DNA from: an uncultured Bacilli bacterium
GTDB taxonomy: Bacteria > Bacillota_I > Bacilli_A > RFN20 > CAG-449
DNA: 64,000 bases
Direction of reading: 5' to 3'
NCBI GenBank assembly: GCA_947632435.1
Contig: CANRPC010000006.1
Location: 4,923 to 68,922, forward strand
The notes under the pieces are model-generated. The model searched no databases, had not been told where the DNA came from, and worked only from the letters and a program-made list of their open reading frames with translations. Shown here piece by piece: positions 5,553-45,537 of this stretch. A program made the translations under genes and the position numbers. The stretch's first letter is position 1; every line of letters begins with the position of its first letter.

Positions 5553-5576
5553 TCAAAACTGAAATGAGGTGAAAAA

Positions 5577-6149: not shown

Positions 6150-6259
6150 AATATTACTTTGAGTTTCTTATTTGTTTTAAAAAAATGGTTTAGACTGACA
6201 ATGGTTTAGTTATATTGTTCGGTCGTACTAGTTTATCCTATATGCCCTACAAATCTTTG

Positions 6260-6292
6260 AAGCACCATTCACGTTGGAAAGGTGCTTTTTTC
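6260..6292 (+). terminator. Rho-independent terminator: hairpin AAGCACC...GGTGCTT followed by a T-run.
   Basis: A stem of 7 bp with a T6 tail, read from the sequence. Confidence 0.5.
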
Positions 6293-6539
6293 TATGCAAA
6301 ATAATACTTTAAAAAATGATAATATATCTTTTTCACCTGAATGGGAATATTGCAAACAAGTAATTGATGAACTAAGAGCAAACAAAATCATAACATCAGA
6401 TGAATGGTATAAATTAATAATTTCATTTAGAAGCATATTTCATCTCCCTATCGCAAAATAGGTATTATTTCAGTTCAAAAATTACTTGATATAAGTGTGC
6501 TTTAGAGTGATTTATATGTGCGAAAGGAGGATTAATTTA

Positions 6540-8243: not shown

Positions 8244-9852
8244 AACATTGCATAAACCAGTTGATGGCAGAAAACTAAAAGTTTGTGCTTATGCTAGAGT
8301 TTCATCAGATAAAGAACTTCAAGAAACAAGTTTTGATGAGCAAATAACATATTATATTAATTTAATAATGAATAATCCTGAATGGGACTTTGCAGGTATA
8401 TTCGCAGATAATGGCAAGACAGGTACTAATACAAGTGTAAGAACACAATTTAATCTCATGCTTGATAAAGCAAAATCTAGCCAAATTGATATTATTCTAG
8501 TTAAATCAATTTCACGATTCGCAAGAAATGTAATTGACCTTTTAAGCACCATTCAAGAACTAAGATTAAAAGGAATTGAAGTCTTTTTTGAAAGAGAAAA
8601 CCTTTCTTCTCTCGATTATAAATGCGATGAACTTCTAACTTGTTATGCAAAATTTGCTGAAGAGGAATCAGAATCAATAAGTAAGAATGTTAAATGGGCT
8701 GTTGAAAAAGCAAAACGAGATGGAAAATACTTTATCAATACTTGGCAGATGCTAGGATATTCATATAATGAAAACAATGAAATTGTTATTGTTGAAGAAG
8801 AAGCAAAATGGATACGAGCAATTTATAACATGTATGTAAATAATCGCTCACTTGTAGAGATTCAACAATTCTTAAAGGAAAACAATGTTAAAAGTCCTTT
8901 AGGAAAAGAAATATGGCCTTTTACTACACTTATGCATACTCTAACAAATGAAAAATATGTAGGTGATTGCCTCATGCAAAAAGAATTTATTGAAGATGTC
9001 AAGACGCATAAGAAAATTCAAAATACTGGCCAAGAAACGCAAGTACTCATAGAAAATGGGCATCCAGCAATTATAGATAGAGATTTATTTAATAAAGCTC
9101 AAGCATTAAGAGAATCAAGACGTAAGCAGTTTAAGGTAAGAACTATATTAGAAGGAACCTACATAAAATCTTCTAATTCTTCTACTTATACTGGATTTGC
9201 ATACTGTCCTCATTGTGGTAAGAATTATATTCTTAAAACAAATAGAAAAGAAGGTTATATGAGAAAAATGCTCTACTGCGGTTCAAATCGAAATGGACTT
9301 CAATGCAGAAAAAGCGAATCATTATTTTGTGACATTTTGGAAGACATTATGGTAAAGCAAATAAATGTTATACTAGCAAATAAATCATATTTTAAAGAAT
9401 GGTTATTAAATGGCTTCAGAATAAATGAATCAGACATTGATAATACTTCTGAGAAGATTGAATCTTTAAGAAAAAGACTTACTGAACTTGATGATAATGT
9501 TGAAATAGACAGGTATGTTAAAGAGGAAATTAACAATCAAATAAATAGTCTCATTACCAAGCAAATCCAAGAGCGAAATAATAAACTTGTAATTGATTAT
9601 CAATCTCTTATTTCAAAAATTCTTGATTTGATTAAGCAATATAATTCAATAAAAACAATTGATGAAATTCCGTTTAGAGATATTTTCTCAAAAGTGATAG
9701 TCATTGATAGAGATCACTTAATATTTGTCATAGGAAGTCCAAATTTAGAAAAAGTTGATGTTAATCAAAAAACATACTTCTCATCAAAAATAATTTACAG
9801 AGTGAGAAAAACAAACTTCGAATGTGAATTTGGTATAATCATAAATAAGTAA
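8236..9852 (+). CDS. Second large serine recombinase, a paralog of the upstream gene.
   Basis: YARVSSDKELQ, DIILVKSISRFARN and a zinc-ribbon CPHCGK...CGSNRNGLQC. The start was refined to ATG 8236 (MIKTLHK), which has a GGAGGTGA RBS. It overlaps the upstream stop by 8 bp, as in ccrA/ccrB pairs. Confidence 0.85.
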   Translation: MIKTLHKPVDGRKLKVCAYARVSSDKELQETSFDEQITYYINLIMNNPEWDFAGIFADNGKTGTNTSVRTQFNLMLDKAKSSQIDIILVKSISRFARNVIDLLSTIQELRLKGIEVFFERENLSSLDYKCDELLTCYAKFAEEESESISKNVKWAVEKAKRDGKYFINTWQMLGYSYNENNEIVIVEEEAKWIRAIYNMYVNNRSLVEIQQFLKENNVKSPLGKEIWPFTTLMHTLTNEKYVGDCLMQKEFIEDVKTHKKIQNTGQETQVLIENGHPAIIDRDLFNKAQALRESRRKQFKVRTILEGTYIKSSNSSTYTGFAYCPHCGKNYILKTNRKEGYMRKMLYCGSNRNGLQCRKSESLFCDILEDIMVKQINVILANKSYFKEWLLNGFRINESDIDNTSEKIESLRKRLTELDDNVEIDRYVKEEINNQINSLITKQIQERNNKLVIDYQSLISKILDLIKQYNSIKTIDEIPFRDIFSKVIVIDRDHLIFVIGSPNLEKVDVNQKTYFSSKIIYRVRKTNFECEFGIIINK

Positions 9853-9876
9853 AAAAATATATAAAAAAAGAGGAAC

Positions 9877-9915
9877 TTGAGTTTGTAAGTTCAAGTTCCT
9901 TTTTCTTTGCTCATA
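9877..9915 (+). terminator. Rho-independent terminator: a 10-bp perfect stem AGGAACTTGA...TCAAGTTCCT followed by TTTTCTTT.
   Basis: Read from the sequence immediately after the recombinase stop. Confidence 0.6.
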
Positions 9916-10110
9916 AGTTCGCTTCCCGTTTGCTTCTCGTTCGCTTTCCCTATGTCTTTAATTTGAATAATTTATGAGTTCGTACCCTATATTTATCAAT
10001 GCATTTTTGCCTAGTTTAATACCAATTGACCAGAAACCGCTAGAACTAATCATTTGCTAAAAAGTGTCGTTTCGTGCGTTTTGCTGTTGATATAGTGCAT
10101 TTTTAGACAA

Positions 10111-10139
10111 AAATAAAAAGAGTACCAACTGGTATTCTT
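10111..10139 (-). terminator. Rho-independent terminator for tRNA-Trp. The hairpin has 9 of 10 bp paired, followed by a U-run on the minus strand.
   Basis: Plus strand reads AAATAAAAAGAGTACCAACTGGTATTCTT. On the minus strand this is a hairpin followed by TTTTTATTT. Confidence 0.5.
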
Positions 10140-10153
10140 TTGGTTTTTTTGAA

Positions 10154-10227
10154 TGGCAGGAGTGACAGGAATCGAACCCGCGTTAATGGTTTTGGAGACC
10201 ACTGTACTACCATTGTACGACACTCCT
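10154..10227 (-). tRNA. trnW: tRNA-Trp (anticodon CCA).
   Basis: Minus-strand sequence AGGAGTGTCGTACAATGGTAGTACAGTGGTCTCCAAAACCATTAACGCGGGTTCGATTCCTGTCACTCCTGCCA folds into a cloverleaf with anticodon loop CTCCAAA. The CCA end is encoded. Confidence 0.85.
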
Positions 10228-10237
10228 AATATAAAAA

Positions 10238-12596: not shown

Positions 12597-13577
12597 TTAA
12601 TTTCTAATTGTAGATTTGAAATTTAAAATAAATAATTCAAATCCATAATATGGATCTATTTGACCAGATTTAATTTTATAATCTAATTTATATAATTCAT
12701 TATTAACAAGCATTGCTTTTTCTAAAGGCAATAAACTTAAATTTTGCAAAGCTAGTTGCACCCTATAAGGATGAATTGCCATAATTTTTGCAATAGAGTC
12801 CTTATTTTCATTATTTTTTTGTAAAATACCTACACGTGTAATTATACGAAATTGTGATGCCATCAAAGCTATAAGTCGAACTGGTTCTTCTTTAAAAACT
12901 CTTAAATCATAATATACTTTCAAAGCCTTTTCAATATTGCCTTTTATCAAATTTTCTGCGATTAAAAATGCATTATCCTCTAATTTTAATGAACAAAGAG
13001 CAACAACATCATCAATAGATATATTTTTCGAAAATAAACATAATTTATTAGCATCCATTGTAAATTTAGCTAAATCGCCATTTGCTCTAAAAAGCAATTC
13101 TTTTAAAGCATCTGGAGTAATTTTTACTTCATTTTTTTCAAAATATTGATGAGCAACAGAAGCTAATTTATCACCAGTTAAATTCTCAACTTCTATAATT
13201 TTTGCATGCTTTTTTAATAATTTATAAATTTCAGACTTCAAAGATAAATTACTACCTTCAAGAAAAAAAACTAAATCTGAATAAAAAGAAGGTTCACTAA
13301 TATACTTTTTTAAAATTTCGTAATTTTGTATTTTTTCAATTTCATTTCTTTCTTTTGACGTAGTTAAAAAATATGGATCTGTTACTACGATCATTTTTTT
13401 TGAAGAAAATAAAGCAGGTTTACTTGCTTCCGAAACAATATCTTGTACAGAAACATTTTTTGCAGATAAAACAACATATGAAAATTCATCAGCATCTAAA
13501 CCAACACTTGTTTCTTTTAATTTTTTTAATTGTTTTTTTAATGTTGGATATTGTTCTCCATAAAGCAAATAAATCAT
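12597..13577 (-). CDS. holA: DNA polymerase III delta subunit.
   Basis: 326 aa. N-terminus MIYLLYGEQYP...LKKLKE. Conserved position downstream of comEC. Confidence 0.7.
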   Translation of the reverse strand: MIYLLYGEQYPTLKKQLKKLKETSVGLDADEFSYVVLSAKNVSVQDIVSEASKPALFSSKKMIVVTDPYFLTTSKERNEIEKIQNYEILKKYISEPSFYSDLVFFLEGSNLSLKSEIYKLLKKHAKIIEVENLTGDKLASVAHQYFEKNEVKITPDALKELLFRANGDLAKFTMDANKLCLFSKNISIDDVVALCSLKLEDNAFLIAENLIKGNIEKALKVYYDLRVFKEEPVRLIALMASQFRIITRVGILQKNNENKDSIAKIMAIHPYRVQLALQNLSLLPLEKAMLVNNELYKLDYKIKSGQIDPYYGFELFILNFKSTIRN

Positions 13578-13591
13578 TTTTTATCACCAAA

Positions 13592-15619
13592 TTAATTATA
13601 AACTATTTGATATTTCACTTCAAAGAAATAAAAAAACAAAGCACAAAATCTAAAATTATTTTCGTGATAAAAAATTGTTCCCTCTTCATCGGTACGATGA
13701 TATTTAATATTTAATTTTTTTAAATTATTAATAACAACTGCGCTTGGATGATTATAAGAATTATTTTTTCCTACAGAAATAACAGCTTCTTTTGGATTAA
13801 CAGCTTTTAAAAATTTAAAAGATGAAGATGTATTACTTCCATGATGTGCAATTTTTATAATATCCGCGGAAACATCATATTTATTTAAAATCATATTTTC
13901 TATTTTTTGTGATATATCTCCACAGAAAAGATATGTACGCGAATAAAATTTTAACTTTATTAATGATGAATCATCATTATCCAAACTTCCATCACCAAAA
14001 GAATTTAAATTATAAAATGTTAAATTATCAATTTTATATTTATAAAAATCACTTCCAAAATGATAACTATCAATTTGAAAATTATTAATTAAATTTTCTA
14101 AAGCTCCTGAATGATCATAATCATCATGGCTTAAAAAAATATGATCAATTTTTTTAATATTCATCTTCTTGAAAAAAGGAATGAGAACTACATTAGCAAT
14201 GTCTTTTTTTAAATTTCCACCTGTATCTATTAAAATATTTTTATTTCTGTCATGAATAAGAGTACAATCTCCTTGACCAACATTTATAAACGCTACAAAT
14301 GATGTAGAAAAATTTATTTTTGTAGAAAATAAAAAAAGAGTTAAAGAAAAGCACAAAACATATTTAACTGCACGCTTTTTATTATTTCTTTCTAAAGTGA
14401 TAACAATCAAAATAAAAAATATAATTGCTAAAATAGTACAAAAAATAGTATTAAAATAAAAATCTAAAGTAATATTATACATTTTAATAATTTTAAAAAA
14501 CATTTCATAAAAATTTTTAAATAAAGATAAAATGCATTCTAAATTAGGCAAAAACATTAATATATAAATAATTAAAAAAAATAAAGTAAAAATTTCTTTA
14601 AAAACATAGAGCAAAAGAAATGATAAAATATTTACGTTATGAAAAAAATAAATTTGTAATGGTATAAAAATAAGTTCCATAAGAAAAGCATTAATAATAT
14701 TTTTAAATTTAAAACTAAAAATATTAACCGCAGCTTTTAAATAAGGAATAAATAAAGGAATCAAAAAAGAAAAATAAAACGTAGCGTTTTGCAAAAATAA
14801 AGGATTATGGAAAAGATTAATTAATAATAAAGCATTGATAATTTGGCTTTTTTTAATATTAATATTATGGTTTTTAACTAAAATTAAAACATATGCTTTT
14901 AATATACCAATTTTAAATGATGAAAAAATAATAATAGGAAATAATAATATTTCCCTAATTATCATAGCCTTTTTTTCTTTTAAAAATTTTTCTAATATAC
15001 GTTTAAAAATAGTATCTAATCCATAAAGAATAATTCCACTGCTAGAAATGATAAATGTTATTCCTAATGAATTATTATAATCAATATTTTCATTAAAAAT
15101 GTGCTCTGCAATGAAAGTTTTATTTTCTATAGAAAAATTGTTTAATATTTGTTCTTTCAAATAATTAGAGCGAATAAATGTTCTAGAAATCGATGAAATT
15201 GAAAAAACATATAAAGAAAAATTAATGTTTTTCTTATTTAGATATTGTTGAAAATTAAATTCACTTTCTAAACTGATAAATTCTAATTTTCTTCTATATC
15301 CATTAATTTTTAAAATATCACCAACTTCATGTAAATGGCTTTTTTCATAAATATAATAATTTACTAAATCACTACTAAAAATATAATAGTTTTCTTTAAC
15401 CATTGTTACTATACCAATATATTCGCCTTTTTCTTTATGATTATCGTAATTTGTGATATTGATAAAAGTAAAAAAAAGGCAGAAAGAGAAAATAAATATT
15501 TTAAGATTAAATTGGCAAAATTTAGGAATTAAGAATAATGAAAAAAAAGCTAACCACCCTAATAAAGGGTTGATTAGCCAAAAAGAAAAAGCGATGTATA
15601 CAAAAATAAAATATTTCAT
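13592..15619 (-). CDS. comEC: ComEC/Rec2 DNA internalization channel with a C-terminal metallo-beta-lactamase domain.
   Basis: Polytopic membrane N-terminus. The C-terminus contains VAFINVGQGDCTLIHD...LIDTGG and HDDYDHSG, which match the MBL motifs. Confidence 0.8.
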   Translation of the reverse strand: MKYFIFVYIAFSFWLINPLLGWLAFFSLFLIPKFCQFNLKIFIFSFCLFFTFINITNYDNHKEKGEYIGIVTMVKENYYIFSSDLVNYYIYEKSHLHEVGDILKINGYRRKLEFISLESEFNFQQYLNKKNINFSLYVFSISSISRTFIRSNYLKEQILNNFSIENKTFIAEHIFNENIDYNNSLGITFIISSSGIILYGLDTIFKRILEKFLKEKKAMIIREILLFPIIIFSSFKIGILKAYVLILVKNHNINIKKSQIINALLLINLFHNPLFLQNATFYFSFLIPLFIPYLKAAVNIFSFKFKNIINAFLMELIFIPLQIYFFHNVNILSFLLLYVFKEIFTLFFLIIYILMFLPNLECILSLFKNFYEMFFKIIKMYNITLDFYFNTIFCTILAIIFFILIVITLERNNKKRAVKYVLCFSLTLFLFSTKINFSTSFVAFINVGQGDCTLIHDRNKNILIDTGGNLKKDIANVVLIPFFKKMNIKKIDHIFLSHDDYDHSGALENLINNFQIDSYHFGSDFYKYKIDNLTFYNLNSFGDGSLDNDDSSLIKLKFYSRTYLFCGDISQKIENMILNKYDVSADIIKIAHHGSNTSSSFKFLKAVNPKEAVISVGKNNSYNHPSAVVINNLKKLNIKYHRTDEEGTIFYHENNFRFCALFFYFFEVKYQIVYN

Positions 15620-16155
15620 CTAAGACGAATATAATCGCGCACTTTTTGATATGTTGCATCGCCAATTCCTGAAACATTCTTAATATCTTCTAAAGCAAGA
15701 AATGGGCCATTTTCTTCACGATATGCGACAATTTTTTCTCCAAGTGTTAAAGAAATACCATCTAGTGTTGATAATTGAGCCGCGCTTGCAGTATTAATAT
15801 TTATTTTTTCAACAGCAGCTTCAATTTCACATTCTGTTGCATATGAAGATTTAGGTGGAATGTAAACGTTGGTTCTATTTTCTAAAGTGGTTTCAATCAT
15901 AATTGCATTTTGATCAGCACTTTCTAAAAAACCACCAGCTTTTTCAACTAAATCACCAATAGTCTGTGTTTTTGCCATAGAATAGGATCCTGGATGAACT
16001 ATTTGTCCATCTATTATTACCCGAATTTGATTTTCTTCCTCTACGGAAACAATGTCATCACCGTTTTGTTGATTCTTCACATTAGGATCAATTTTTGTGA
16101 ATGTAAAAATAAGAGCAACAACTGCAACAGCTACAATAGCAATAATTTTAAACAT
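15616..16155 (-). CDS. comEA: ComEA DNA receptor with helix-hairpin-helix motifs.
   Basis: N-terminal transmembrane segment. C-terminal INTASAAQLSTLDGISLTLGEKIVAYREENGPF...IKNVSGIG tandem HhH. Overlaps comEC by 4 bp. Confidence 0.8.
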   Translation of the reverse strand: MFKIIAIVAVAVVALIFTFTKIDPNVKNQQNGDDIVSVEEENQIRVIIDGQIVHPGSYSMAKTQTIGDLVEKAGGFLESADQNAIMIETTLENRTNVYIPPKSSYATECEIEAAVEKININTASAAQLSTLDGISLTLGEKIVAYREENGPFLALEDIKNVSGIGDATYQKVRDYIRLR

Positions 16156-27289: not shown

Positions 27290-27303
27290 ATGGAGTGAAA
27301 TAT

Positions 27304-28701
27304 ATGCCTGAATTACCTGAAGTAGAAACTGTAAGAAAATATCTTTCAATCGGAATTAAAGGGAAAAAGATTGAAAAGGTAAATATTATTGACAAAAGAA
27401 TAACAAGTTTATCAAAACTTGATTTAAAATTATTAAATGGTCAAAAAATAATTGATATTGATAGAAAAGGTAAATATTTAATTTTTATTTTTGAAGATTA
27501 TATAATGCTATCACATTTACGTATGGAAGGAAAGTATTATTTATATCATGAAAATGAAGAAAATAGTAAATATGCTAGAGTTATTTTTAATCTCAATGAA
27601 AATTTGAAATTAATTTACGATGATGTTCGTCGTTTTGGAAAAATGCAACTTTTCAAAAAAGAAAATTTTGATATTCATATTGCTTTACCAAATCTTGGAA
27701 ATGAACCATTTGATTATGATAAGGAAACTTTTTTTAAAATTATCCATAAACAAAAAAAAGAAATTAAAACTTTATTACTAGATCAATCTATAATCGCAGG
27801 AATAGGAAATATCTATGCTGATGAAATTCTTTTTAAAGCAAAAATATCTCCATTTAAATGTGGTTTTGAATTATCAAAACAAGATACAGATAATATATTA
27901 TTTTACGCGATAGAAACTCTTAATGAAGCAATATTACTAGGTGGTTCAACAATTAGAAGTTATCATCCTTCTAGAGATATAAATGGTCGTTTTCAACAGC
28001 AACTTTTAGCATATGGACGAGAAAAAAAGCCTTGTCTTATTTGTAATCATAAAATGATTAAACGTTTTTTACATGGTCGAAGTCTAACATATTGCCCTAA
28101 TTGCCAACATGTAGGAAAAGTTGTAGCAATATATGGTAAAATTGCTTCTGGTAAATCTTCTATCTTAAAAATGTTTCAAAATGATAATTATCCATGCTTT
28201 TCAAGCGATGATGAAGTTGATAAATTATATAAAAACGATATTAATTTTACATTAAAATGTGTTAACTTGTTTCACGAAGAATGCTTAAATAGTAACAATA
28301 AAGTTTCTAAAGAATATGTAAAACAAGTAATTATACAAGATTCTCAAAAGAAGAAAGAATTAGAAGGAATAATTCATCCAATAATTCAAAAAAAGGCTAT
28401 TGACTTTATAAAAAAGAATATCGATAAAGAACTTATTATTTTAGAAATACCTTTATTATTTGAAGCAAAAATGGAATCAATCGCAGATTATATTGTTGGC
28501 GTTGATGTTTCTGACTATATGCAAATTCAAAATTTAAAAACAAGAAATTCAATTTCCATAACAAATGATCTTATTTTAAATAAAAATAATTCATTCAACA
28601 AAAATATTGCTAAATGTGATTTTGTAATTGAAAATAATTCTACATTAGAGGATTTAAAAAAGAAATATGAAGAATTAAAGAATTTTTTAATTAATGTTTA
28701 A
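27304..28701 (+). CDS. mutM-coaE: Fusion protein: formamidopyrimidine-DNA glycosylase (MutM/Fpg) joined to dephospho-CoA kinase (CoaE).
   Basis: The N-terminus PELPEVETVRKYL and the zinc finger CLICNHK..16 aa..CPNCQH complete a Fpg domain. A CoaE P-loop VVAIYGKIASGKSS follows in the same frame with no intervening stop. Confidence 0.75.
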   Translation: MPELPEVETVRKYLSIGIKGKKIEKVNIIDKRITSLSKLDLKLLNGQKIIDIDRKGKYLIFIFEDYIMLSHLRMEGKYYLYHENEENSKYARVIFNLNENLKLIYDDVRRFGKMQLFKKENFDIHIALPNLGNEPFDYDKETFFKIIHKQKKEIKTLLLDQSIIAGIGNIYADEILFKAKISPFKCGFELSKQDTDNILFYAIETLNEAILLGGSTIRSYHPSRDINGRFQQQLLAYGREKKPCLICNHKMIKRFLHGRSLTYCPNCQHVGKVVAIYGKIASGKSSILKMFQNDNYPCFSSDDEVDKLYKNDINFTLKCVNLFHEECLNSNNKVSKEYVKQVIIQDSQKKKELEGIIHPIIQKKAIDFIKKNIDKELIILEIPLLFEAKMESIADYIVGVDVSDYMQIQNLKTRNSISITNDLILNKNNSFNKNIAKCDFVIENNSTLEDLKKKYEELKNFLINV

Positions 28702-29021
28702 TATCCTAAAATGACATATAAAAGAATTTCGATAGTCTCATCTTTTTGATTTAACGTTTTATGATAATCATGGCAAATAGTAAATGAAAATATTGCACCA
28801 TTTTCTGCATGATCTTCTTGATATTTTAGATAAATATCATTTTCTTTTAAAATTTCTTTTAACTCATTAGTAATGCCTAAATCTTTTCTTATTTTTGATT
28901 TAACAAACTCAATATTTTCTAGTAAGGTGTTATAACAATAGTAATAATTTCCTAAATCATATATAAATACTAACATAAATAAAATAAATACTAACTTAGT
29001 AAAATAGTAGATTTTTTTCAT
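28698..29021 (-). CDS. Hypothetical small membrane-anchored protein, the last gene of a 5-gene leftward operon.
   Basis: 107 aa with an N-terminal transmembrane segment. Overlaps the upstream gene by 4 bp. Confidence 0.4.
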   Translation of the reverse strand: MKKIYYFTKLVFILFMLVFIYDLGNYYYCYNTLLENIEFVKSKIRKDLGITNELKEILKENDIYLKYQEDHAENGAIFSFTICHDYHKTLNQKDETIEILLYVILGY

Positions 29022-30031
29022 GCATAAAACCTCAAAAAAATAAATAACAAAATTGGTAAAGCAAAATATATTAAAGAAGTGTTTTTTCGATAGTAATTTA
29101 GTAAATAATTATTATTTTTTAATGAATCATTTTCTTCTTTAATAAGTTCATTTTTTATTAATATTTGAGATATTTCTTTATCAAAAGTATTTTTTATTTT
29201 AAAGTCATCTAAATGATTTAAAATAGTAATTTTTTTGTTTTGCATTTTTTCTTGAATTTTAGGAAATTCTAAACAAGTTTTATCAAATGCATCAAATGGT
29301 AAAATGTAAAAACATTTTAGATAAAATTGTTGAAAAAAATTAATTTTGATATTTTTTTTATAAAAATAAAAACAATAACTATAATACGTAAAATAAAAAA
29401 TTATTTTTATAATAACTGCTAAATTTATCAAAAATATATTTATATTTATTAAAGGTAATATCATTGTAATTAATACATCCATAAATAAAGAAATAATTAA
29501 CAGAAATTTGATATCAATTAAAGAATTTTTAATTTCTTCATTTTGCTTTTCTTGCAAAAAAATAGAAATTTGATTCCTCATTTTTTTTAAAATATCATTT
29601 TGTTTTTTGCTTAACATTGCATCTATAAAATATGAACAATAAGGAAGATTAATTTTTATTTTTATTTCTTCTATTTTGTTTTCAATACTATTTTCATTTA
29701 ATGGAATAGCAAATACTTTTTCAAAAGAATTAATTATTTTTTCCTCTTTTGAAATATTTTGAGTATTTTGAAAAATACTATCCGTAAAAATTAAAAATTT
29801 TTTATTTAAAAGACAATTTTTGCTTATTAAATTCAAAACGTAATTATCAAAAATAAAAATAATACTTAAAATTAAACAACTAAATATTATTTTCACATAT
29901 TTATTAATAATTATAAGATCTAAAATTAAATAAATTAATATTGCAATAAATATATTACTTATAAATGATATGTAAGAGAAAACTGAATCTCTTTTTTGTT
30001 CTTGTAATAGTTTTTTTGATAATTTAGGCAT
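29018..30031 (-). CDS. Hypothetical polytopic membrane protein.
   Basis: 337 aa with at least 4 transmembrane segments. Strong RBS AAAGGAGGT before ATG 30031. Confidence 0.5.
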   Translation of the reverse strand: MPKLSKKLLQEQKRDSVFSYISFISNIFIAILIYLILDLIIINKYVKIIFSCLILSIIFIFDNYVLNLISKNCLLNKKFLIFTDSIFQNTQNISKEEKIINSFEKVFAIPLNENSIENKIEEIKIKINLPYCSYFIDAMLSKKQNDILKKMRNQISIFLQEKQNEEIKNSLIDIKFLLIISLFMDVLITMILPLININIFLINLAVIIKIIFYFTYYSYCFYFYKKNIKINFFQQFYLKCFYILPFDAFDKTCLEFPKIQEKMQNKKITILNHLDDFKIKNTFDKEISQILIKNELIKEENDSLKNNNYLLNYYRKNTSLIYFALPILLFIFLRFYA

Positions 30032-30345
30032 ACTTTAACCTCCTTTAAAGTTACTTCATCAAATAAATATCCAAATTGTAAATTTGCATTATCAAAATAA
30101 TTGTTAAAAGATTTTTTTAGTAAATCATTTAATGTAACTTCAAAAATTTTTTCATCAAAAGAAACTATATTTAAATCAAATTTGAGACTATAGTTTAATG
30201 CATTTATAACATCTGTTTTAAATATTTTTTCAATTTTTGCATCATAAAGATTATAAAATACCAAATTATAGAAAACTGATGGAGATATTAAATAAAAAAT
30301 TATTTTAAAAAAGAGTATAATTTTTTTCATATATAATTTCTCCAT
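29959..30345 (-). CDS. Hypothetical small protein with an N-terminal signal peptide or membrane anchor.
   Basis: 128 aa. Overlaps both neighbouring genes. The real start may be MKKIILFF at 30330. Confidence 0.35.
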   Translation of the reverse strand: MEKLYMKKIILFFKIIFYLISPSVFYNLVFYNLYDAKIEKIFKTDVINALNYSLKFDLNIVSFDEKIFEVTLNDLLKKSFNNYFDNANLQFGYLFDEVTLKEVKVCLNYQKNYYKNKKEIQFSLTYHL

Positions 30346-31177
30346 TACCAGAAGTAATTTCTACGCAAGACAATAAATCAGTTTTTAAGCTTATCTCTAT
30401 TGGAAAAAGGAAATTAGTATCTTCTATAGTAATAGCCATTAAAAAACTGATATTTTTTAAATTGAAATTTGATGGAAAAATTATTTCTTCTGTAAGCTCA
30501 TTTTTACTTAAATACATTTGATCATGAAATTTATCATATGAATAAATTTTTTTTAAATTCATATTATATATATCTTCATTTAAATTGATATCTAAATAAA
30601 AACAATAATTAACTAAATTATATGGTATATTAATAAACGTTCCTTCATCTACAAAGACATAAAGTACTGAATAAATATTTTTAATATCTATAAAATTAGA
30701 TATTTTAAAATAAGGCAACATAGAAATTTTAAAATACGAAATATTATCTAAATAAATATTTTTATTATAATTCATAAAGGTAATACTTTTACTTAAATTA
30801 CCATGTATAACTGAGCAATTGGAACTTAAACTTACTAAATAATAACCAATAAAATACTCAAGTTCATCCACGATAATATTTTTATAATTACCATTATTTC
30901 TTAATTCTAAATATGCTCTTCCTGACTCAGAAGTAACTATTATTGAATAAACGTTTTTTGATGCACTTTTAGGAATAGTAATAACATCTGTTGAGCTTTG
31001 AATATAATCTTTTCCATCAACTTCAAACCTTAATTTTTCTGAATTTTGACTTTGCACAATTATTCTAATATAACTATTACTATTTTCAATAATTTGCGCA
31101 TAATAATTTTCTACATCATTTAAATTAAGTAAAGAAAAAGCAAAAAAATAAGGTAAATATCTTTTTAATAAATGCAA
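30305..31177 (-). CDS. Hypothetical secreted protein.
   Basis: 290 aa. Signal peptide MHLLKRYLPYFFAFSLLNLN. TTG start with a GAGGA RBS. Confidence 0.45.
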   Translation of the reverse strand: MHLLKRYLPYFFAFSLLNLNDVENYYAQIIENSNSYIRIIVQSQNSEKLRFEVDGKDYIQSSTDVITIPKSASKNVYSIIVTSESGRAYLELRNNGNYKNIIVDELEYFIGYYLVSLSSNCSVIHGNLSKSITFMNYNKNIYLDNISYFKISMLPYFKISNFIDIKNIYSVLYVFVDEGTFINIPYNLVNYCFYLDINLNEDIYNMNLKKIYSYDKFHDQMYLSKNELTEEIIFPSNFNLKNISFLMAITIEDTNFLFPIEISLKTDLLSCVEITSGNGEIIYEKNYTLF

Positions 31178-31518
31178 AGAAATTCCTCGATTGCTTTCTT
31201 TCTTATGCGATAAAAAGTTGATCTTGTATAATCACGCATCCACCAAAATTTTTCAACTGGAAAAAAATATTCATTCCAAATAATCATAGCTCTTTTTCTA
31301 TCCATAGATGAAAGTACAAAATTAATTCTTAAAATTTCACGTTTTTCTTCGGCTAATTTATCGTTGTTGATATTAATAAACCTTTTTTGAACTTCATGTG
31401 CAGAATCAAATAGCATTAAATCTTCGTTGTTAAAATTGTCATTTTTCATGCATATGCTTAAATCTTTTTTATATTTTAAAGCAATATCTTTTATTTTACA
31501 TTCACATGTATCTATCAT
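31165..31518 (-). CDS. Small sigma-70 region-4-like / ArpU-RinA-like putative transcription activator.
   Basis: 117 aa. C-terminus WWMRDYTRSTFYRIRKKAIEEF resembles an ECF sigma region-4 HTH. First gene of the operon. Confidence 0.4.
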   Translation of the reverse strand: MIDTCECKIKDIALKYKKDLSICMKNDNFNNEDLMLFDSAHEVQKRFININNDKLAEEKREILRINFVLSSMDRKRAMIIWNEYFFPVEKFWWMRDYTRSTFYRIRKKAIEEFLCIY

Positions 31519-31838
31519 ATTTACCTATCTCCTTTGTATACATATACAATAAAACTTTTTTATCAAAATTTAAACAATTTTTTTAAAAATGTTACATTTT
31601 TTTACAAAAGTCTTATTTATTGTTTATTTTTATTTCATTTTTATCTCATATTTTTACTTTTGATTACAATTTTTACAAATTTTAATTATTTTATCGCATT
31701 AATTATATAAATATAGATACAAAATTTATTTTTATTGTCATTTAACTTCTTTTTTAATATTATTAATAATTAAATTGTATAACTTGACAATTATTTGTAA
31801 AACAATTAATCTTAATTAGTAAGTTAAAAGGAATTTAT

Positions 31839-32825
31839 ATGATGAAATTATTTAATTTTTTTGCTTTATCTTTATGTTCTCTTACTTTTTTTTCTTGTTC
31901 GCAGAAAAAAAATGAAAAAATATTGAAAACTTACCATGAACAAATTGATTCATTTATTTATGCAGATGATAAAGAGTTAATAGACCTACATAATAATAGC
32001 CAAGATTTTATTTTATTTCTCTATTCCGATTGCGGATGTGGAGGTAATAGTGAAATTGCTATTTCATCATTTAAAGATTATATAAAAGAGAATAAAACAA
32101 TAATATACGCTACTGGTGAAGAAGATTATCTTAATTTACCACTTTCATTAAGCGATGTTTTTCCAAAATATCCTTCTGAAATTAAAGAAAAAGCAAAAAA
32201 AATTCCCTCATTATATTTTTATAAAGATGGGAATCTTATAAAATCTGTTTCTTATTCTTCAAAATTTAATTCTTCAGTAGATATTGCAAAGATAATTGAT
32301 CAATATACGTATTCAAATGGTAAATACTGTTTAAATGATTTAAGCGAATTTAAACATAAAGATGAAATTTTTTATAAATTTGATTATGAAAATACTATTT
32401 ACCTTAATAGCACTATAAATACGAAAAATGCTTGCATATACTTCTATTGGAAAGCTTGCTCTGATTGTTTTTCTTTTAAAACATATGAAAGAAAACTTTT
32501 TGAAAATTATGATAGTAAATTATATTATTTTGATGTAAATTATTTCATTACAAATAGAGATGAACACTGGTATAAAGAAAATAGTTTTCCATTTAAATAC
32601 CAATTTTCTGAATATCGTGGTGGAAAGGTTCCATCGATTGTAAATTTTGTTTCTGGAAAAAAAGAATCATTTATTGTTTATCACAATGATGTAAAAGTTG
32701 ATAATGTAATTACCGAATCATTTTTTGAAGAATTAATTTCTCAAAATTTATCTGAGAAAGAAATAAATGATTACGAAGGTAATAAAGTTATCGAGTATAT
32801 AAAAGAGCATACAAGAAATGAATAA
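31839..32825 (+). CDS. Lipoprotein with two thioredoxin-like Cys motifs (SDCGCGG and WKACSDC).
   Basis: Signal peptide with lipobox-like LTFFSCS. WKACSDC resembles W-C-x-x-C. Confidence 0.5.
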   Translation: MMKLFNFFALSLCSLTFFSCSQKKNEKILKTYHEQIDSFIYADDKELIDLHNNSQDFILFLYSDCGCGGNSEIAISSFKDYIKENKTIIYATGEEDYLNLPLSLSDVFPKYPSEIKEKAKKIPSLYFYKDGNLIKSVSYSSKFNSSVDIAKIIDQYTYSNGKYCLNDLSEFKHKDEIFYKFDYENTIYLNSTINTKNACIYFYWKACSDCFSFKTYERKLFENYDSKLYYFDVNYFITNRDEHWYKENSFPFKYQFSEYRGGKVPSIVNFVSGKKESFIVYHNDVKVDNVITESFFEELISQNLSEKEINDYEGNKVIEYIKEHTRNE

Positions 32826-33549
32826 AGAAGATTTAAACGCAAATATCGGTTTGTATCGATCTTTAGATTTGATACACGATTCTAGAATTTCAGTATTTAC
32901 TAAAGCTGGAAGTAACGCTATATTATTTAGTTTAATTGTTGTTGGTTATTTTATTTCTGGTCAACAAATATTATTTCCCTATAAAAGCACGAAGTTATAC
33001 ATTTTTCAAATTGTTTTAACTTTTCTTCTTATTATGGTTTATTCATTTCTTCATGATTTAATACATTTTATCGCGGGAAAATTGATGCACGTAAAACTTG
33101 AATTAAAATTTAAATATTTATTCCCATATATTAAATACACTAATGATATTGAAAAGAAAAAGAATTATTATTTCACCATTTTAGCGCCATTTGTTTTGTT
33201 TTTAATAATTTTAATTCCATTGCAAATTATCATTTCAATAATTGCTCATGATTGGTTTTGGTTAATTTTTATAATTATAATTCAAAACTTTGTCGTTTCA
33301 ATAGATGATCTTGCTTATGTTATTTATACTATGAAATATAAAAATACATATTTACAAATTAGTGAAACAAATATAAATATTTATTTTGATAAAAAATTAT
33401 TTAAAATGCTTAGAGAAAAAGAAAAAAGAAAAATTTCACAAAAAATTGCTCAAGATGAACTTAAATATAATGAGAAAAAAGCAAAAAAGATATTAATAGA
33501 TGAAAATATTGATCAAGATATTGAAGATCTAAAAAAATTAGATAAATAA
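32818..33549 (+). CDS. Polytopic membrane protein with an HDLIH motif, possibly a DUF3267-like putative membrane zincin.
   Basis: 243 aa. LHDLIHFIAGKLMH lies within a transmembrane region. Overlaps the lipoprotein gene by 8 bp. The family assignment is tentative. Confidence 0.4.
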   Translation: MNKEDLNANIGLYRSLDLIHDSRISVFTKAGSNAILFSLIVVGYFISGQQILFPYKSTKLYIFQIVLTFLLIMVYSFLHDLIHFIAGKLMHVKLELKFKYLFPYIKYTNDIEKKKNYYFTILAPFVLFLIILIPLQIIISIIAHDWFWLIFIIIIQNFVVSIDDLAYVIYTMKYKNTYLQISETNINIYFDKKLFKMLREKEKRKISQKIAQDELKYNEKKAKKILIDENIDQDIEDLKKLDK

Positions 33550-34229: not shown

Positions 34230-36542
34230 TTATTGTCTAACAATTTTAAATACTTTACCACCAGTTAAAATAACAAGTTTAGCAGCTGTTGGATCAATTT
34301 CATCACCAATTATAGTAATCTTTTTATCTAATCCTGTTCTAGCTTTAATATTTATTACTTCAATTGTAGAACCAATTTGTTGAGCTTCGCGCAATGTTTC
34401 AACAGAAATAGTATTTTCAACATATTTTAAAGCAGTATCAATATAAACATTTACAACTTCTTCATTTAATGCTTTAGGCATTTTGATGACTGGAATTAAA
34501 TCTAATACTTTATCTGTTAATTGTTCAGCATCTTGTTTAGAAGCAACTTCAGTGAAGGATTTTAATTCACCAACTTTTTCAAGAATAGCAATTCCATCTA
34601 CATCAAGATTTTCTGCAAAATTAACTGGTTCATATTTTGAATTTCTTCTTAAACCACGTATATTAGCAATTTCTTGAATTAATTCAATAGCTCTTCTACA
34701 AGATAAATCAGAACGTATTTTCATGGTAAATGGTACATCTTTGAAGGCTTTCTTTTCACCCATATCAAATTGATGATAACGACCTTCATCATAATTTGCT
34801 GGATCTAATGGTAAATGGATTCTTAATGATTTACCAGAAACAGTCAATTTAGCAAATAATCCTTTTTTACGGAATGATTCTGATTTTTTTGAAATTTTGC
34901 TCTTTGTTCTATAAGCAAGTAATTCATTTTTAATTAAGGAATAATAATCTTTTACTTTTGGTGAAGTAAATTTAATTTTATTTTCAAAACTACGTTTAGC
35001 AATAACTAATTTATTTGAATCTTCAAGAATATCTTCAGGAGTAACAATTGGTTCAATAATAGTGTTGTCTTCAGCTAACTCTTCTGTTGATTCTTCTTTT
35101 ACTTCTTCAACAGGCTCTTCAACAGGTTCTTGAGCTACGACTTCTTCAATTGCTTCTTGTTCTTGAGGTTCTTCTTCAACAACTTCTTCTACTTTAGTTC
35201 TATTGTCGACAACTGCAATTTCTTTATCATTACAATAAGCACGAATCTTATCATCATCAATAGTAACTCTAATTTTCAAAGAAATGACATCGTCTTCAAT
35301 TGGTTCAGGTACTACAACATCAACTTTGTAAATTCGTAATACTGTTAATGCAGCACATACAACAAATGGAACAAGAACTAATAAAATTCTTCCAACAGTG
35401 AAATACTTAATCATGACGTATGAAGCAAGTGTGGAAGCAACAACACCTGATAATAAAACAAAATCAACTAAATTAACTTTATTATCAAATAAGCCTTTCT
35501 TAAATAATCCTATTACAAATAACACAGCAGCAATTGCTAATAATAAGATAATTATTGAAGCAAATATTGCAGTTGATTTTACATCAAATACATGACGTAA
35601 ACTTTTTAAACTACAGAAGTCAATTAAAAGTCCAATTGCAAGTCCTAATAATACAGGGCATGATGCTCCAAATTTTTCAAATACAAGACCATAATAATTT
35701 CTTGGTCCTTTTTTCTCTAGTTCAACAGGAACATTATATGAAACAAAAACGCTACGAACAAATAATGTCAAAGTAAGCATTCCAAATCCAGCTGCCCAAA
35801 TGACATCATTACGAACTCTACGAGTTGTAAGTAATAATCCACCAATGAACATTACATATACAAATAAAACATTTAAAACAGCGTCGATAACATTTACTCT
35901 AGTTTTCTTGCCTCGTAAAATTGTTGCAATAAATGCAAGTACGCAAAAAGCAACAATTGCTCCAGCTGCTATAACAATCATATTTTTGGACACAACGCCT
36001 CTAATATCACTATAAAATTTAAGAGTCAAAAATCCTAATATAGCAGGGACAAGATAGATAATTACTGGATTATATTTTCTTGCAACTAATGCATGATAAT
36101 GTTTAATCGGTAAAACATCAGATTCACCTTCGGCATTATTTGCAAAATAAATAGCTCTAACAATAAGTAAAATTAAACTAACAGCTAATGTTCCACTCCA
36201 TAATATTGTCATCATTTTCGAACAATCATTAATTAATGTCGCGGCTAAACCGCCAAGAGATGAAACAAAAGTTCCAAATAGTACAGCATCACTTCTAATT
36301 ATCTTTTTTTGTTTTATAGTTAAAACCAAATACAATAATAATGCAACCACACATACAACTAGACCTGCTTTGCAAAGTGGTAAAATATAATTAGACATTG
36401 CAAAAGAAGAAAAACGGCCTAATAAATTATGGTGATCAACATAATACAAAGCGCATGCAAAAACTAACCCTAAAAATGATGCTATAACAACATCAACAGA
36501 CTTAAATAGGGATTTAAAATAAGATTTTCTAGTTTTTTCCAT
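34230..36542 (-). CDS. Large polytopic membrane protein: about 12 transmembrane segments, an acidic E/P/V-rich linker, and a C-terminal globular domain of roughly 300 aa. Hypothetical.
   Basis: 770 aa. RBS AAGGAG. Linker EEVVEEEPQEQEAIEEVVAQEPVEEPVEEVKEE. No recognisable catalytic motif. Confidence 0.55.
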   Translation of the reverse strand: MEKTRKSYFKSLFKSVDVVIASFLGLVFACALYYVDHHNLLGRFSSFAMSNYILPLCKAGLVVCVVALLLYLVLTIKQKKIIRSDAVLFGTFVSSLGGLAATLINDCSKMMTILWSGTLAVSLILLIVRAIYFANNAEGESDVLPIKHYHALVARKYNPVIIYLVPAILGFLTLKFYSDIRGVVSKNMIVIAAGAIVAFCVLAFIATILRGKKTRVNVIDAVLNVLFVYVMFIGGLLLTTRRVRNDVIWAAGFGMLTLTLFVRSVFVSYNVPVELEKKGPRNYYGLVFEKFGASCPVLLGLAIGLLIDFCSLKSLRHVFDVKSTAIFASIIILLLAIAAVLFVIGLFKKGLFDNKVNLVDFVLLSGVVASTLASYVMIKYFTVGRILLVLVPFVVCAALTVLRIYKVDVVVPEPIEDDVISLKIRVTIDDDKIRAYCNDKEIAVVDNRTKVEEVVEEEPQEQEAIEEVVAQEPVEEPVEEVKEESTEELAEDNTIIEPIVTPEDILEDSNKLVIAKRSFENKIKFTSPKVKDYYSLIKNELLAYRTKSKISKKSESFRKKGLFAKLTVSGKSLRIHLPLDPANYDEGRYHQFDMGEKKAFKDVPFTMKIRSDLSCRRAIELIQEIANIRGLRRNSKYEPVNFAENLDVDGIAILEKVGELKSFTEVASKQDAEQLTDKVLDLIPVIKMPKALNEEVVNVYIDTALKYVENTISVETLREAQQIGSTIEVINIKARTGLDKKITIIGDEIDPTAAKLVILTGGKVFKIVRQ

Positions 36543-44778: not shown

Positions 44779-45537
44779 TTAATTCTTATTTAAAGTTAAC
44801 AATTCTTCTTCAGACTCATCAGGATCTTCTTGAGATACAAAGATCATTGTTAACATCGTAAATACTAAAGTTTGAATCATTCCTGAGAATAAATCAAAAT
44901 ATGCGTGTAAAATAGGAGTTATAAATGGAGGAATAATAACTTGAGAAATTCCTGAATTTAAAAAGCCAAAAATCATTGTAGAAACATTTCCTAAAGCATA
45001 ATAAACTATTGTCATTAAAACAAAGCCACTTAGGGCATTACCAAATAAACGTAATGATAATGATAATAATGGTGACCACATCGATAATAAATTAATTGGC
45101 AAAAAAATTGGAACTGGATCAATATATCTTTTAAAATATCCTAATTTGTTTGCCTTCATAGCAGTAACATGAATTAATACAAAAGTACAAAGTCCTAAAC
45201 TTAATGGCACACCAAGATAAGTCATTGGTGAAGGTAATCCAGTTAAAGAAAAAATAAATGCAAGAAATACATAGGCGAATAAACATAAAGCATAGCCCGA
45301 AAATTTTTCCCATTTTTTTCCCATTAAATCAGTTGTAAAAGATTTGACAGTTTGTACAATAAAAGAAATAGTTACTATAAATTTACTTGGTTTTTCTTCA
45401 TATGGATCAGCATTTTTAAATTTAAAATAAATAACAAAACAGATAATAGCAATTATAAACATGACCAAAAAAGAAGATATAATTTCTCCAGGAATATCAA
45501 ATTTAAACATATTTTTAATAGCATCTTCTAATTTCAT
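44779..45537 (-). CDS. atpB: ATP synthase Fo subunit a.
   Basis: 252 aa, polytopic. Conserved R in LSLRLFGN. Confidence 0.8.
   Translation of the reverse strand: MKLEDAIKNMFKFDIPGEIISSFLVMFIIAIICFVIYFKFKNADPYEEKPSKFIVTISFIVQTVKSFTTDLMGKKWEKFSGYALCLFAYVFLAFIFSLTGLPSPMTYLGVPLSLGLCTFVLIHVTAMKANKLGYFKRYIDPVPIFLPINLLSMWSPLLSLSLRLFGNALSGFVLMTIVYYALGNVSTMIFGFLNSGISQVIIPPFITPILHAYFDLFSGMIQTLVFTMLTMIFVSQEDPDESEEELLTLNKN

What the first reader, a model, noticed from the sequence alone, without database searches (positions are those of the whole stretch)
28698..31518. Five-gene operon of a sigma-region-4-like mini-regulator with secreted and membrane proteins of unknown function
A 117-aa protein ends in an ECF-sigma/ArpU-like HTH (YTRSTFYRIRKKAIEEF). 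It is followed, with overlapping starts and stops, by a signal-peptide protein (290 aa), a single-pass protein (128 aa) that could act as an anti-sigma-like partner, a polytopic membrane protein (337 aa) and a small membrane protein (107 aa). None of them has recognisable domains. The block is extremely AT-rich, sits between polA-mutM and another orphan module, and has a 320-bp AT-rich upstream region. It could be a novel envelope or secretion-related system, a sigma/anti-sigma-controlled surface module, or a remnant of phage late genes.
Basis: inference. Interest (0 to 1): 0.6.

Follow-up and report, generated by a model that had tools for sequence, protein, structure and literature searches.

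The report
Orphan regulator-plus-membrane-protein operon in gut Bacilli
This is a real five-gene operon, conserved in a group of uncultured, very AT-rich gut bacteria, that pairs a small DNA-binding protein distantly related to phage late-gene activators with four membrane or exported proteins matching nothing known; it most likely senses or builds something at the cell surface, but its function has not been shown.

Summary
Five overlapping minus-strand genes (31518 to 28698) sit between mutM-coaE and a divergent lipoprotein/DUF3267 pair, and a 320-bp intergenic region lies upstream. The same five genes, in the same order, occur in every related locus long enough to show them. These are at least nine lineages of uncultured Bacilli/Erysipelotrichaceae MAGs, some with different flanking genes.

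- **g1 (117 aa)** belongs to the NCBIfam MG284/MPN403 family (66 bits, cutoff 37). Some relatives also hit the phage ArpU model. No similarity to sigma region 4 could be shown.
- **g2** models as an exported tandem Ig-like beta-sandwich protein.
- **g4** is a 5-TM protein with two K/R-rich helical loops predicted to be cytoplasmic. It has no fold match.
- **g3 and g5** are small proteins with an N-terminal signal or anchor.
- **No database matches:** g2-g5 have no credible Pfam, NCBIfam, PHROG, PADLOC or PDB-sequence match. g1 has no relative in the phage genome or viral contig collections.

**New finding.** ATGRGA direct repeats spaced about 11 bp apart lie 90-145 nt upstream of g1 in nine of ten lineages (16 observed, about 1.8 expected). 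This resembles the binding sites of RinA/ArpU-type activators.

**Best model (inferred).** The operon activates itself, and the membrane proteins restrain or signal to the activator, as in sigma/anti-sigma systems. Pilus, phage-remnant and defence readings were tested and not supported.

The parts
31165..31518 (-). g1: 117-aa DNA-binding regulator of the MG284/MPN403 family, a distant relative of ArpU/Ltr activators. Residues 62-115 carry the conserved WW..YSRSTFYR.R..A...F helix-turn-helix region.
   Evidence: NCBIfam NF045770, 66.1 bits against a cutoff of 37.3. All 44 full-length relatives hit it and 8 of 44 also hit TIGR01637 phage_arpU. Alignments. 298 cluster representatives at E<=1e-3.
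30305..31177 (-). g2: 290-aa exported or N-terminally anchored protein with tandem Ig-like beta-sandwich domains. It is an accessory member, absent in L038.
29959..30345 (-). g3: 128-aa small protein with an N-terminal hydrophobic signal or anchor and no cytoplasmic domain. It is an accessory member.
   Evidence: The ORF is conserved in all AT-rich lineages and the HMM finds it in loci not used for training (L009 E=8e-12, L026 E=7e-7). Hydropathy. No family hits.
29018..30031 (-). g4: 337-aa polytopic membrane protein. Layout: N-terminal TM hairpin, ~100-aa helical loop, second TM hairpin, ~100-aa helical loop, C-terminal TM. Both large loops are rich in K/R and are therefore predicted to be cytoplasmic.
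   Evidence: AlphaFold2 on 16 sequences gives pLDDT 67, all-helical. Hydropathy and K/R counts across 8 homologs. No PDB fold match (best E=0.8). No PDB sequence match of any meaning.
28698..29021 (-). g5: 107-aa small protein with an N-terminal TM or signal segment followed by a conserved Asp and an ~80-aa domain containing a conserved GGI/ELKE stretch.
   Evidence: Alignments. Conserved as the last gene of the cassette in all lineages. No family or PDB hits.
31610..31649 (-). Array of direct repeats with an 11-nt period (ATGAGAT aaaa ATGAAAT aaaa ATAAACA ataa ATAAGAC), 131 to 98 nt upstream of the g1 start codon. This is the candidate binding site of g1.
   Evidence: ATGAGA is the most enriched 6-mer upstream of g1 across 10 lineages. 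ATGRGA occurs 16 times against 1.8+/-1.3 in Markov-1 simulations (0 of 5000 reach 16) and 0.08 per 250 nt in the other intergenic DNA of the window. Positions run from -148 to -90, with spacings of 11, 21-22, 32 and 43. Only 2 of 6 pairs spaced 11 nt apart in about 395 kb searched (both strands) lie anywhere else.
31519..31838 (.). 320-bp AT-rich intergenic region shared by g1 and the divergent lipoprotein/DUF3267 genes. It holds the repeat array, the presumed promoter and the g1 ribosome-binding site.
   Evidence: Sequence. Promoter-like sites are not enriched over shuffles, so no promoter is assigned.

Best explanation
This is a chromosomal, vertically inherited operon of a clade of uncultured, very AT-rich gut Bacilli. 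Its first gene encodes a small DNA-binding activator of the MG284/MPN403 family, a cellular branch related to the phage ArpU/RinA (Ltr) late-gene activators. The activator probably binds an array of ATGRGA direct repeats, phased about one helical turn apart, 90-145 nt upstream of its own gene, and so switches on the whole operon. The other genes are translationally coupled to it and encode an envelope complex: g4, a 5-TM protein with two predicted cytoplasmic helical loops; g5 and g3, small exported or anchored proteins; and g2, an exported tandem Ig-like protein. The most likely logic resembles a sigma/anti-sigma module built from unrelated parts. The cytoplasmic loops of g4 hold or modulate the activator, and the extracytoplasmic partners (g5, plus g3 and g2 where present) couple that hold to a cue at the cell surface. 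Shown here: gene order and its conservation, family membership of g1, the repeat array, topology and fold class. Inferred: DNA binding at the repeats, autoregulation, sequestration by g4, and the existence of a surface signal.
For: - **Synteny.** Gene order g1-g5 is conserved in at least nine lineages, including ones where the cassette sits between different genes (addAB-like and tyrS in L015; GGGtGRT and tyrS in L017).
- **Distant lineages.** GC-richer lineages keep g1 followed by membrane proteins of the same layout and a small exported last gene (L036, L038). Two relatives differ: one matches only the C-terminal HTH region of g1 (P0041) and one matches only weakly and partially (L033), and neither has the cassette.
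- **Coupling.** All five genes overlap, as is usual when stoichiometric co-expression matters.
- **g1 family.** NF045770 at 66 bits; relatives hit TIGR01637 ArpU. Ltr proteins are activators that bind three 7-nt direct repeats upstream of their target promoter (PMC3753634).
- **Repeats.** ATGRGA repeats are enriched about 9-fold, restricted in position and phased at about 10.7 nt. L038 has a different 11-nt direct repeat, AGTCCACTCTG x2, in the same place.
- **g4 topology.** The large loops carry 13-22 K/R while the short turns carry 0-3, so the helical loops are predicted to face the cytoplasm where g1 is. g3 and g5 have no cytoplasmic part.
Against: - No experiment and no structure of a complex supports any g1-g4 contact.
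- The repeats sit in an intergenic region shared with a divergent gene pair, so they could serve those genes instead.
- L015 and L026 carry only degenerate versions of the repeat, and L036 shows none.
- Related lineages share ancestry, which inflates the apparent conservation of the motif.
- No other regulon member was seen, but only 64 kb of the genome was available.
- Links between g4/g5 and their supposed counterparts in L036 and L038 are weak (E about 1e-4 and 0.03).
Confidence: 0.35

Rival explanations
1. Dedicated activator plus a structural surface module. g2-g5 form a surface structure or adhesin complex (an Ig-like ectodomain protein held by membrane partners). g1 is simply its on-switch and receives no feedback from the membrane proteins.
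For: g2 is a tandem Ig-like exported protein, a fold common in adhesins and surface layers. Three of the four partners are exported or anchored. A thiol-disulfide-type lipoprotein and a DUF3267 membrane protein are frequent neighbours.
Against: g2 and g3 are missing in L038 while g1, the membrane proteins and the last small gene persist, so the Ig-like protein is not the core. A self-activating operon with no brake would be unusual. The large cytoplasmic loops of g4 would have no role in this model.
Confidence: 0.3
2. Domesticated remnant of phage late or lysis genes, with an ArpU-type late activator and leftover membrane proteins (holin-like or similar).
For: g1 relatives hit the phage ArpU model. 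There is a weak PHROG hit to a transcriptional activator family (phrog_248, E=0.013). The block has the lowest GC in the window.
Against: There are no phage genes nearby, and housekeeping genes flank the block in all lineages. g1 has no tblastn match in the phage records and no relative in IMG/VR. g2-g5 have no credible PHROG hits. The viral fold search gives only generic Ig matches. The genes are conserved across lineages whose g1 proteins are only about 35-68% identical, which implies a host function.
Confidence: 0.07
3. A degenerate pilus or pseudopilus system (Com/Tad/T2SS-like): g4 as a GspF/TadB-type platform and g2, g3 and g5 as pilin-like proteins.
For: g4 has paired cytoplasmic helical loops between TM segments. 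In L036 and L038 its place is taken by two shorter membrane genes, which recalls TadB/TadC. Three partners have N-terminal hydrophobic helices. comEA and comEC are in the window.
Against: hhalign of g4 against E. coli GspF+HofC gives probability 0.03%. No T2SSF structure appears among the Foldseek hits and there is no Pfam T2SSF hit. No N-terminus carries a prepilin G/xxxxE motif. No secretion ATPase or prepilin peptidase is found in any of the loci.
Confidence: 0.05
4. An anti-phage defence or toxin-antitoxin-like cassette with a transcriptional regulator.
For: It is a small orphan operon with a regulator and low GC.
Against: PADLOC gives no hit for any of the five proteins at E<=1. The chromosomal position is stable and the inheritance pattern looks vertical. 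No enzymatic domains are present.
Confidence: 0.03

Closest known systems
MG284/MPN403 family (NCBIfam NF045770), uncharacterised small proteins of Mycoplasma and relatives
   Same: The C-terminal 55 residues of g1 match the family's domain model well above its cutoff. All 44 full-length relatives match too.
   Different: No function is published for the family: a full-text search for MG284/MPN403 returned nothing relevant. Whether the Mycoplasma members have g4/g5-like neighbours could not be checked.
Ltr superfamily of phage late-gene activators (RinA, ArpU, LtrA/Sigma70_r4, LtrB/DUF1492, LtrC; PMC3753634)
   Same: They are small proteins with a conserved C-terminal DNA-binding domain. A minority of g1 relatives hit the ArpU model (best E=1.3e-6). 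Short direct repeats upstream of the regulated promoter are the known Ltr binding sites, and g1 has an analogous repeat array.
   Different: g1 itself does not hit the ArpU model at E<=1. It is chromosomal, not phage-borne. It is the first gene of the operon it presumably controls, rather than lying upstream of terS. Its partners are membrane proteins, not packaging or lysis genes.
ECF sigma / anti-sigma operons (e.g. rpoE-rseABC, sigM-yhdLK)
   Same: The operon logic is similar: a regulator first, translationally coupled to membrane and exported partners, with likely autoregulation.
   Different: g1 has no sigma region 2 (it is only 117 aa) and no detectable region-4 similarity. No partner has a recognisable anti-sigma domain. 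The resemblance concerns how it may work, not family membership.
T2SS/T4P/Tad platform proteins (GspF/PilC/TadB-TadC) with pseudopilins
   Same: There is a polytopic protein with cytoplasmic helical loops, a possible split into two genes in other lineages, and small partners with N-terminal hydrophobic helices.
   Different: No sequence, profile or fold similarity was found. There is no prepilin motif, no ATPase and no peptidase.

Membership tests
MG284/MPN403 family (NF045770) | Match to the curated C-terminal domain model above its cutoff | tested here: met
   66.1 bits against a cutoff of 37.3, E=2.1e-18, residues 62-115. 44 of 44 and 69 of 70 relatives match.
ArpU family (TIGR01637) / Ltr activators | Match of the protein itself to the ArpU model | tested here: not met
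   g1 has no TIGR01637 hit at E<=1. Only 8 of 44 full-length and 23 of 70 wider relatives hit it at E<=0.01, best 1.3e-6.
ArpU family (TIGR01637) / Ltr activators | Encoded by a phage or prophage, upstream of the terS late operon | tested here: not met
   Housekeeping genes flank the cassette in all loci. There is no phage or IMG/VR match.
ArpU family (TIGR01637) / Ltr activators | Short direct repeats upstream of the controlled promoter that serve as the binding site | tested here: inconclusive
   A phased ATGRGA repeat array is present and strongly enriched, but binding has not been tested.
Sigma-70 family, region 4 (Pfam Sigma70_r4 / r4_2) | Detectable sequence or profile similarity to region 4 | tested here: not met
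   No Pfam hit at E<=1. hhalign gives probability 1.2% against E. coli RpoE/FecI/FliA/RpoD region 4 and 0.4% against the Sigma70_r4 protein at window 1743-2174. The PDB profile search finds no sigma factor. The templates were shallow, so a structural likeness is not excluded.
ECF sigma factor | Presence of sigma region 2 (core-binding and -10 recognition) | tested here: not met
   The protein is 117 aa, and the N-terminal 60 residues have no Sigma70_r2 hit.
Anti-sigma factor (ASD/ZAS-type), proposed for the 128-aa g3 | A cytoplasmic N-terminal domain ahead of the TM helix that can bind the regulator | tested here: not met
   g3 has 0-8 residues before its hydrophobic segment in all homologs and no family hit.
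T2SSF platform proteins (GspF/PilC/TadB/TadC), considered for g4 | T2SSF domain similarity | tested here: not met
   No Pfam hit. hhalign against GspF+HofC gives probability 0.03%. No T2SSF chain appears among the 50 listed (best-scoring) of the 146 Foldseek matches. TadB/TadC themselves were not tested.
Type IV pilin / pseudopilin, considered for g2, g3 and g5 | Class III signal peptide (G at -1, E at +5) and a nearby prepilin peptidase and ATPase | tested here: not met
   The N-termini are of the form MKK + hydrophobic stretch + D, without the motif. No such genes occur in any locus.
Known anti-phage defence systems (PADLOC-DB) | Match of any component to a defence-protein model | tested here: not met
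   0 families for all five proteins at E<=1.
Phage structural proteins | PHROG family or specific viral fold match | tested here: not met
   g2-g5 have no credible PHROG hits. In BFVD the g2 model matches only generic Ig-like domains at TM 0.2-0.3.

The most novel reading that the evidence does not exclude
MG284/MPN403-family proteins would be a cellular branch of the phage Ltr/ArpU activator superfamily. Together with previously undescribed membrane partners (g4-type proteins with cytoplasmic helical loops, and a g5-type exported protein), they would form a new kind of transmembrane signalling module. This would be an anti-activator system analogous to sigma/anti-sigma pairs but built from unrelated folds. 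It would be conserved across Mollicutes-related Bacilli and would possibly explain the role of the uncharacterised MG284/MPN403 genes of minimal Mycoplasma genomes.
Probability: 0.2. Interest if true: 0.7.

Novelty: new variant of a known kind. Interest (0 to 1): 0.45.

Why it matters
Genome-reduced Mollicutes and their uncultured gut relatives have very few transcription regulators. The MG284/MPN403 family is one of the conserved candidates, and no function is published for it.

This locus places a member of that family in a fixed genetic context: a candidate DNA site (phased ATGRGA repeats) and a fixed set of membrane partners. That turns an anonymous family into a testable regulatory circuit.

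It would also show that the phage RinA/ArpU type of activator has a cellular, non-phage branch used for envelope-related control. The four partner proteins are new families with no match in Pfam, NCBIfam, PHROGs, PADLOC or the PDB.

Tried and rejected
1. **Pilus or T2SS platform idea for g4.** By eye, motifs looked T2SSF-like. However, hhalign against E. coli GspF+HofC gave 0.03%, Foldseek found no such fold, and no prepilin motif or ATPase is present. Rejected.
2. **Sigma region 4.** hhalign against four E. coli sigma region-4 segments and against a Sigma70_r4 protein of this window gave 1.2% and 0.4%. Not shown.
3. **g3 and g5 as paralogs.** hhalign probability 0.4%. Rejected.
4. **g4 as an internal duplication.** hhalign of the two halves gave probability 1%. 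The split-gene correspondence in L036 and L038 rests on layout and weak HMM hits only.
5. **One search for all four partners.** Homologs were instead recovered from the loci and registered through exact cluster look-ups, so that structure prediction would accept them.
7. **Broader scans.**
   - A broad g1 alignment was too divergent for the locus scan.
   - A narrower alignment found only 5 metagenome loci.
   - The same narrower alignment found no viral loci.
8. **PDB profile searches.** Searches with g1, g2, g4 and g5 gave nothing meaningful.
9. **Less AT-biased homologs.** Pfam and NCBIfam scans of the L036 and L038 proteins gave nothing.
10. **Names for distant g1 relatives.** The sources give only 'hypothetical protein'.
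11. **Literature.** A search for MG284/MPN403 found nothing relevant.

Full report
**What is there.**

The window is about 26% GC and reads cleanly with table 11 (polA, 867 aa, is intact). On the minus strand, five ORFs run from 31518 to 28698:

| Gene | Coordinates | Length |
|---|---|---|
| g1 | 31165-31518 | 117 aa |
| g2 | 30305-31177 | 290 aa (TTG start) |
| g3 | 29959-30345 | 128 aa |
| g4 | 29018-30031 | 337 aa |
| g5 | 28698-29021 | 107 aa |

- Successive genes overlap by 13, 41, 73 and 4 nt.
- g1 has an AGGAG ribosome-binding site, and the TTG start of g2 is preceded by GAGGA.
- The block has the lowest GC of the window, 0.19-0.20.
- It contains no terminator-like site.
- It lies between the convergent polA / mutM-coaE genes and a divergent pair: a 328-aa lipoprotein with CxxC-type motifs and a DUF3267 protein. 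A 320-bp gap separates g1 from that pair.

**Is it a unit?**

- The exact g1 protein occurs on eight public contigs with the same neighbours.
- Relatives of g1 at 45-68% identity all carry the same five-gene order. They come from MAGs titled 'uncultured Bacilli bacterium' (rabbit-gut 'Lapin' bins and others) and 'uncultured Erysipelotrichaceae bacterium'.
- More distant relatives (35-44% identity) keep the cassette even where the flanks differ. L015 lies between addAB-like genes and tyrS. L017 lies after a GGGtGRT gene and before tyrS. L016, L026 and L029 lie next to mutM-coaE.
- HMMs built from eight lineages find g1-g5 in order in every locus that is long enough. This includes loci not used for training: L026/L028 give all four partners at E=1e-7 to 1e-12, and the g3 ORF of L009 gives E=8e-12.
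- g3 is therefore a real gene, even though the public gene calls skipped it in the window's own lineage.
- Two much more distant lineages with less biased composition were also examined.
  - L036 (45% GC) has g1, a g2-like gene interrupted by masked bases, a g3-like gene, two membrane genes of 215 and 279 aa, a 95-aa exported protein, and then tyrS.
  - L038 (53% GC) has g1, two membrane genes of 228 and 214 aa, a 109-aa exported protein and tyrS, with no g2 or g3.
  - Their links to g4 and g5 are weak (E about 1e-4 and 0.03) and rest mainly on position and layout.
  - If accepted, the core is g1 plus the g4-type membrane protein(s) plus g5, with g2 and g3 as accessories.
- Two relatives differ. 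P0041 matches only the C-terminal HTH region of g1 and lies upstream of ptsI. L033 matches only weakly and partially and lies upstream of an ACP-like gene. Neither has the cassette.

**The regulator.**

- g1 has no Pfam hit.
- An exhaustive profile search finds 298 cluster representatives at E<=1e-3.
- 69 of 70 sampled relatives match NF045770, and 23 of 70 also match TIGR01637, the ArpU family of phage packaging/lysis regulators (best E=1.3e-6). Among the 44 with full-length architecture the count is 8.
- g1 is thus a cellular relative of the Ltr superfamily. Those proteins activate phage late operons by binding three 7-nt direct repeats upstream of the terS promoter (PMC3753634).
- The 'sigma region 4' label could not be substantiated.
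  - hhalign gives probability 1.2% against region 4 of E. coli RpoE/FecI/FliA/RpoD.
  - hhalign gives probability 0.4% against a genuine Sigma70_r4 protein elsewhere in this window.
  - PDB profile searches find no sigma factor.
- No paper in the library mentions MG284/MPN403 in a relevant way.
- Sources name distant relatives only 'hypothetical protein'.

**A candidate binding site.**

- I compared 250 nt upstream of g1 in ten lineages. The most enriched 6-mer is ATGAGA (11 observed, 0.6 expected).
- ATGRGA occurs 16 times. Markov-1 simulations give 1.8+/-1.3, and none of 5000 reaches 16. The window's other intergenic DNA gives 0.08 per 250 nt.
- The hits lie 90-148 nt upstream of the start codon. 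Spacings are 11, 11, 11, 11, 21, 22, 32, 32, 43 and 43 nt, which puts them on one face of the helix.
- In the window the array reads ATGAGATaaaaATGAAATaaaaATAAACAataaATAAGAC, at 31649-31610 on the minus strand.
- In about 395 kb of window and locus sequence (both strands), pairs spaced 11 nt apart occur six times, and four of the six are at g1 upstream regions.
- L038 has a different 11-nt direct repeat, AGTCCACTCTG x2, at the same place.
- L015 and L026 have only degenerate copies, and L036 has none that I could recognise.
- This is the architecture expected of an Ltr-type activator acting on its own operon, but binding is inferred, not shown.
- The region is shared with the divergent lipoprotein/DUF3267 genes, which might also be controlled from it.

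**The partners.**

None of g2-g5 has a credible hit in Pfam, NCBIfam, PHROGs or PADLOC. Profile searches of g2, g4 and g5 against PDB sequences also gave nothing. The less AT-biased L036 and L038 versions gave nothing either.

- **g4** was modelled on 16 sequences (pLDDT 67, pTM 0.57) and is all-helical, with no PDB match better than E=0.8.
  - Hydropathy across eight homologs shows a TM hairpin, a 85-133-aa loop with 15-22 K/R, a second hairpin whose turn mostly has 0 K/R (3 in one homolog), a 89-111-aa loop with 13-19 K/R, and a C-terminal TM.
  - By the positive-inside rule both large helical loops are cytoplasmic.
- **g3 and g5** have only 0-8 residues before an N-terminal hydrophobic segment, so they have no cytoplasmic domain. 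g5 has a conserved Asp just after that segment and a conserved GGI...ELKE stretch.

**How it most likely works.**

- The facts best fit an autoregulated envelope module. The activator g1 turns on its own operon from the repeat array. The co-translated membrane proteins provide the brake or the input.
- g4 is the only partner with cytoplasmic domains, so it is the likely contact for g1. g5, with g3 and g2 where present, would be the outward-facing part.
- This is the logic of sigma/anti-sigma operons, achieved with unrelated proteins.
- I put this at about 0.35.
- The main rival (0.3) is that g2-g5 form a surface structure or adhesin and g1 is only its switch. Against it, the Ig-like protein is dispensable in one lineage, and the cytoplasmic loops of g4 would be left unexplained.
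- A phage remnant (0.07), a degenerate pilus system (0.05) and a defence cassette (0.03) were each tested and found wanting.

**Limits.**

- The last homology search was lost to a candidate cap.
- Two fold libraries were unavailable.
- g3 and g5 were not modelled.
- The neighbours of Mycoplasma MG284/MPN403 could not be inspected.
- Only 64 kb of the genome was available for regulon scanning.

**Verdict.**

This is a genuine, conserved orphan operon. Its regulator belongs to a named but uncharacterised family related to phage ArpU/RinA activators. Its four partners are new families. A phased direct-repeat array gives a concrete, testable handle. Interest is moderate (0.45), and I classify it as a new variant of a known kind of regulator-plus-membrane-partner module.

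Noticed in passing
window 900-10230: An integrated mobile element lies next to a tRNA gene (10157-10227). It carries an HTH_3 repressor-like gene (906-1511), a 143-aa Sigma70_r4/UPF0122 small regulator (1743-2174, the LtrA type of phage late activator), a Lin1244_N protein (2098-3129), a Bro-N/ANT antirepressor (3369-4136), a tyrosine integrase (4181-5110), another HTH_3 gene (5577-6149) and two large serine recombinases (6495-8243, 8218-9852).
   Followed up: partly
window 12597-16155: The DNA-uptake genes comEA (SLBB+HHH_3, 15616-16155) and comEC (675 aa, 13592-15619) are followed by holA. No comG-type genes were seen in the window.
   Followed up: no
window 27295-28701: mutM (Fapy glycosylase/H2TH) and coaE (dephospho-CoA kinase) are fused into one 468-aa ORF. 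The fusion is conserved (464-469 aa) in all related MAG loci.
   Followed up: no
window 31839-33549; L016 4342-5037; L017 2254-3282; L026 5056-5757: A 328-aa lipoprotein with two CxxC-type motifs and a DUF3267 (putative zincin) membrane protein are divergent neighbours of g1 in five lineages. Other lineages have a PedC-like thioredoxin lipoprotein nearby instead. This recurrent thiol-disulfide-type neighbour may share the repeat-bearing intergenic region.
   Followed up: partly
window 34230-36542: A 770-aa polytopic membrane protein with an acidic, low-complexity middle region has no Pfam family. It is conserved (742-770 aa) beside a pair of U32 peptidase genes in the related loci.
   Followed up: no
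window 55114-60378: A 1754-aa ORF has no Pfam hit at E<=0.001.
   Followed up: no
window 45313-45324 (minus strand): The only other 11-nt-spaced ATGGGA pair in the window lies inside a 252-aa ORF of the ATP synthase operon. It is probably a chance match rather than a second target site.
   Followed up: partly
L033 999-1648: A distant g1 relative (132 aa) sits directly upstream of a 77-aa acyl-carrier-protein-like gene (DSLDLVDL motif) and has no membrane cassette. From memory (not checked), M. genitalium MG284 lies a few genes from the ACP homolog MG287, so this may be the Mycoplasma-type context.
   Followed up: no
L038 5900-6000: In a 53% GC lineage the g1 upstream region carries a different perfect 11-nt direct repeat (AGTCCACTCTG x2) followed by three TTTTGAT repeats. 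This suggests that the site co-varies with the regulator.
   Followed up: partly
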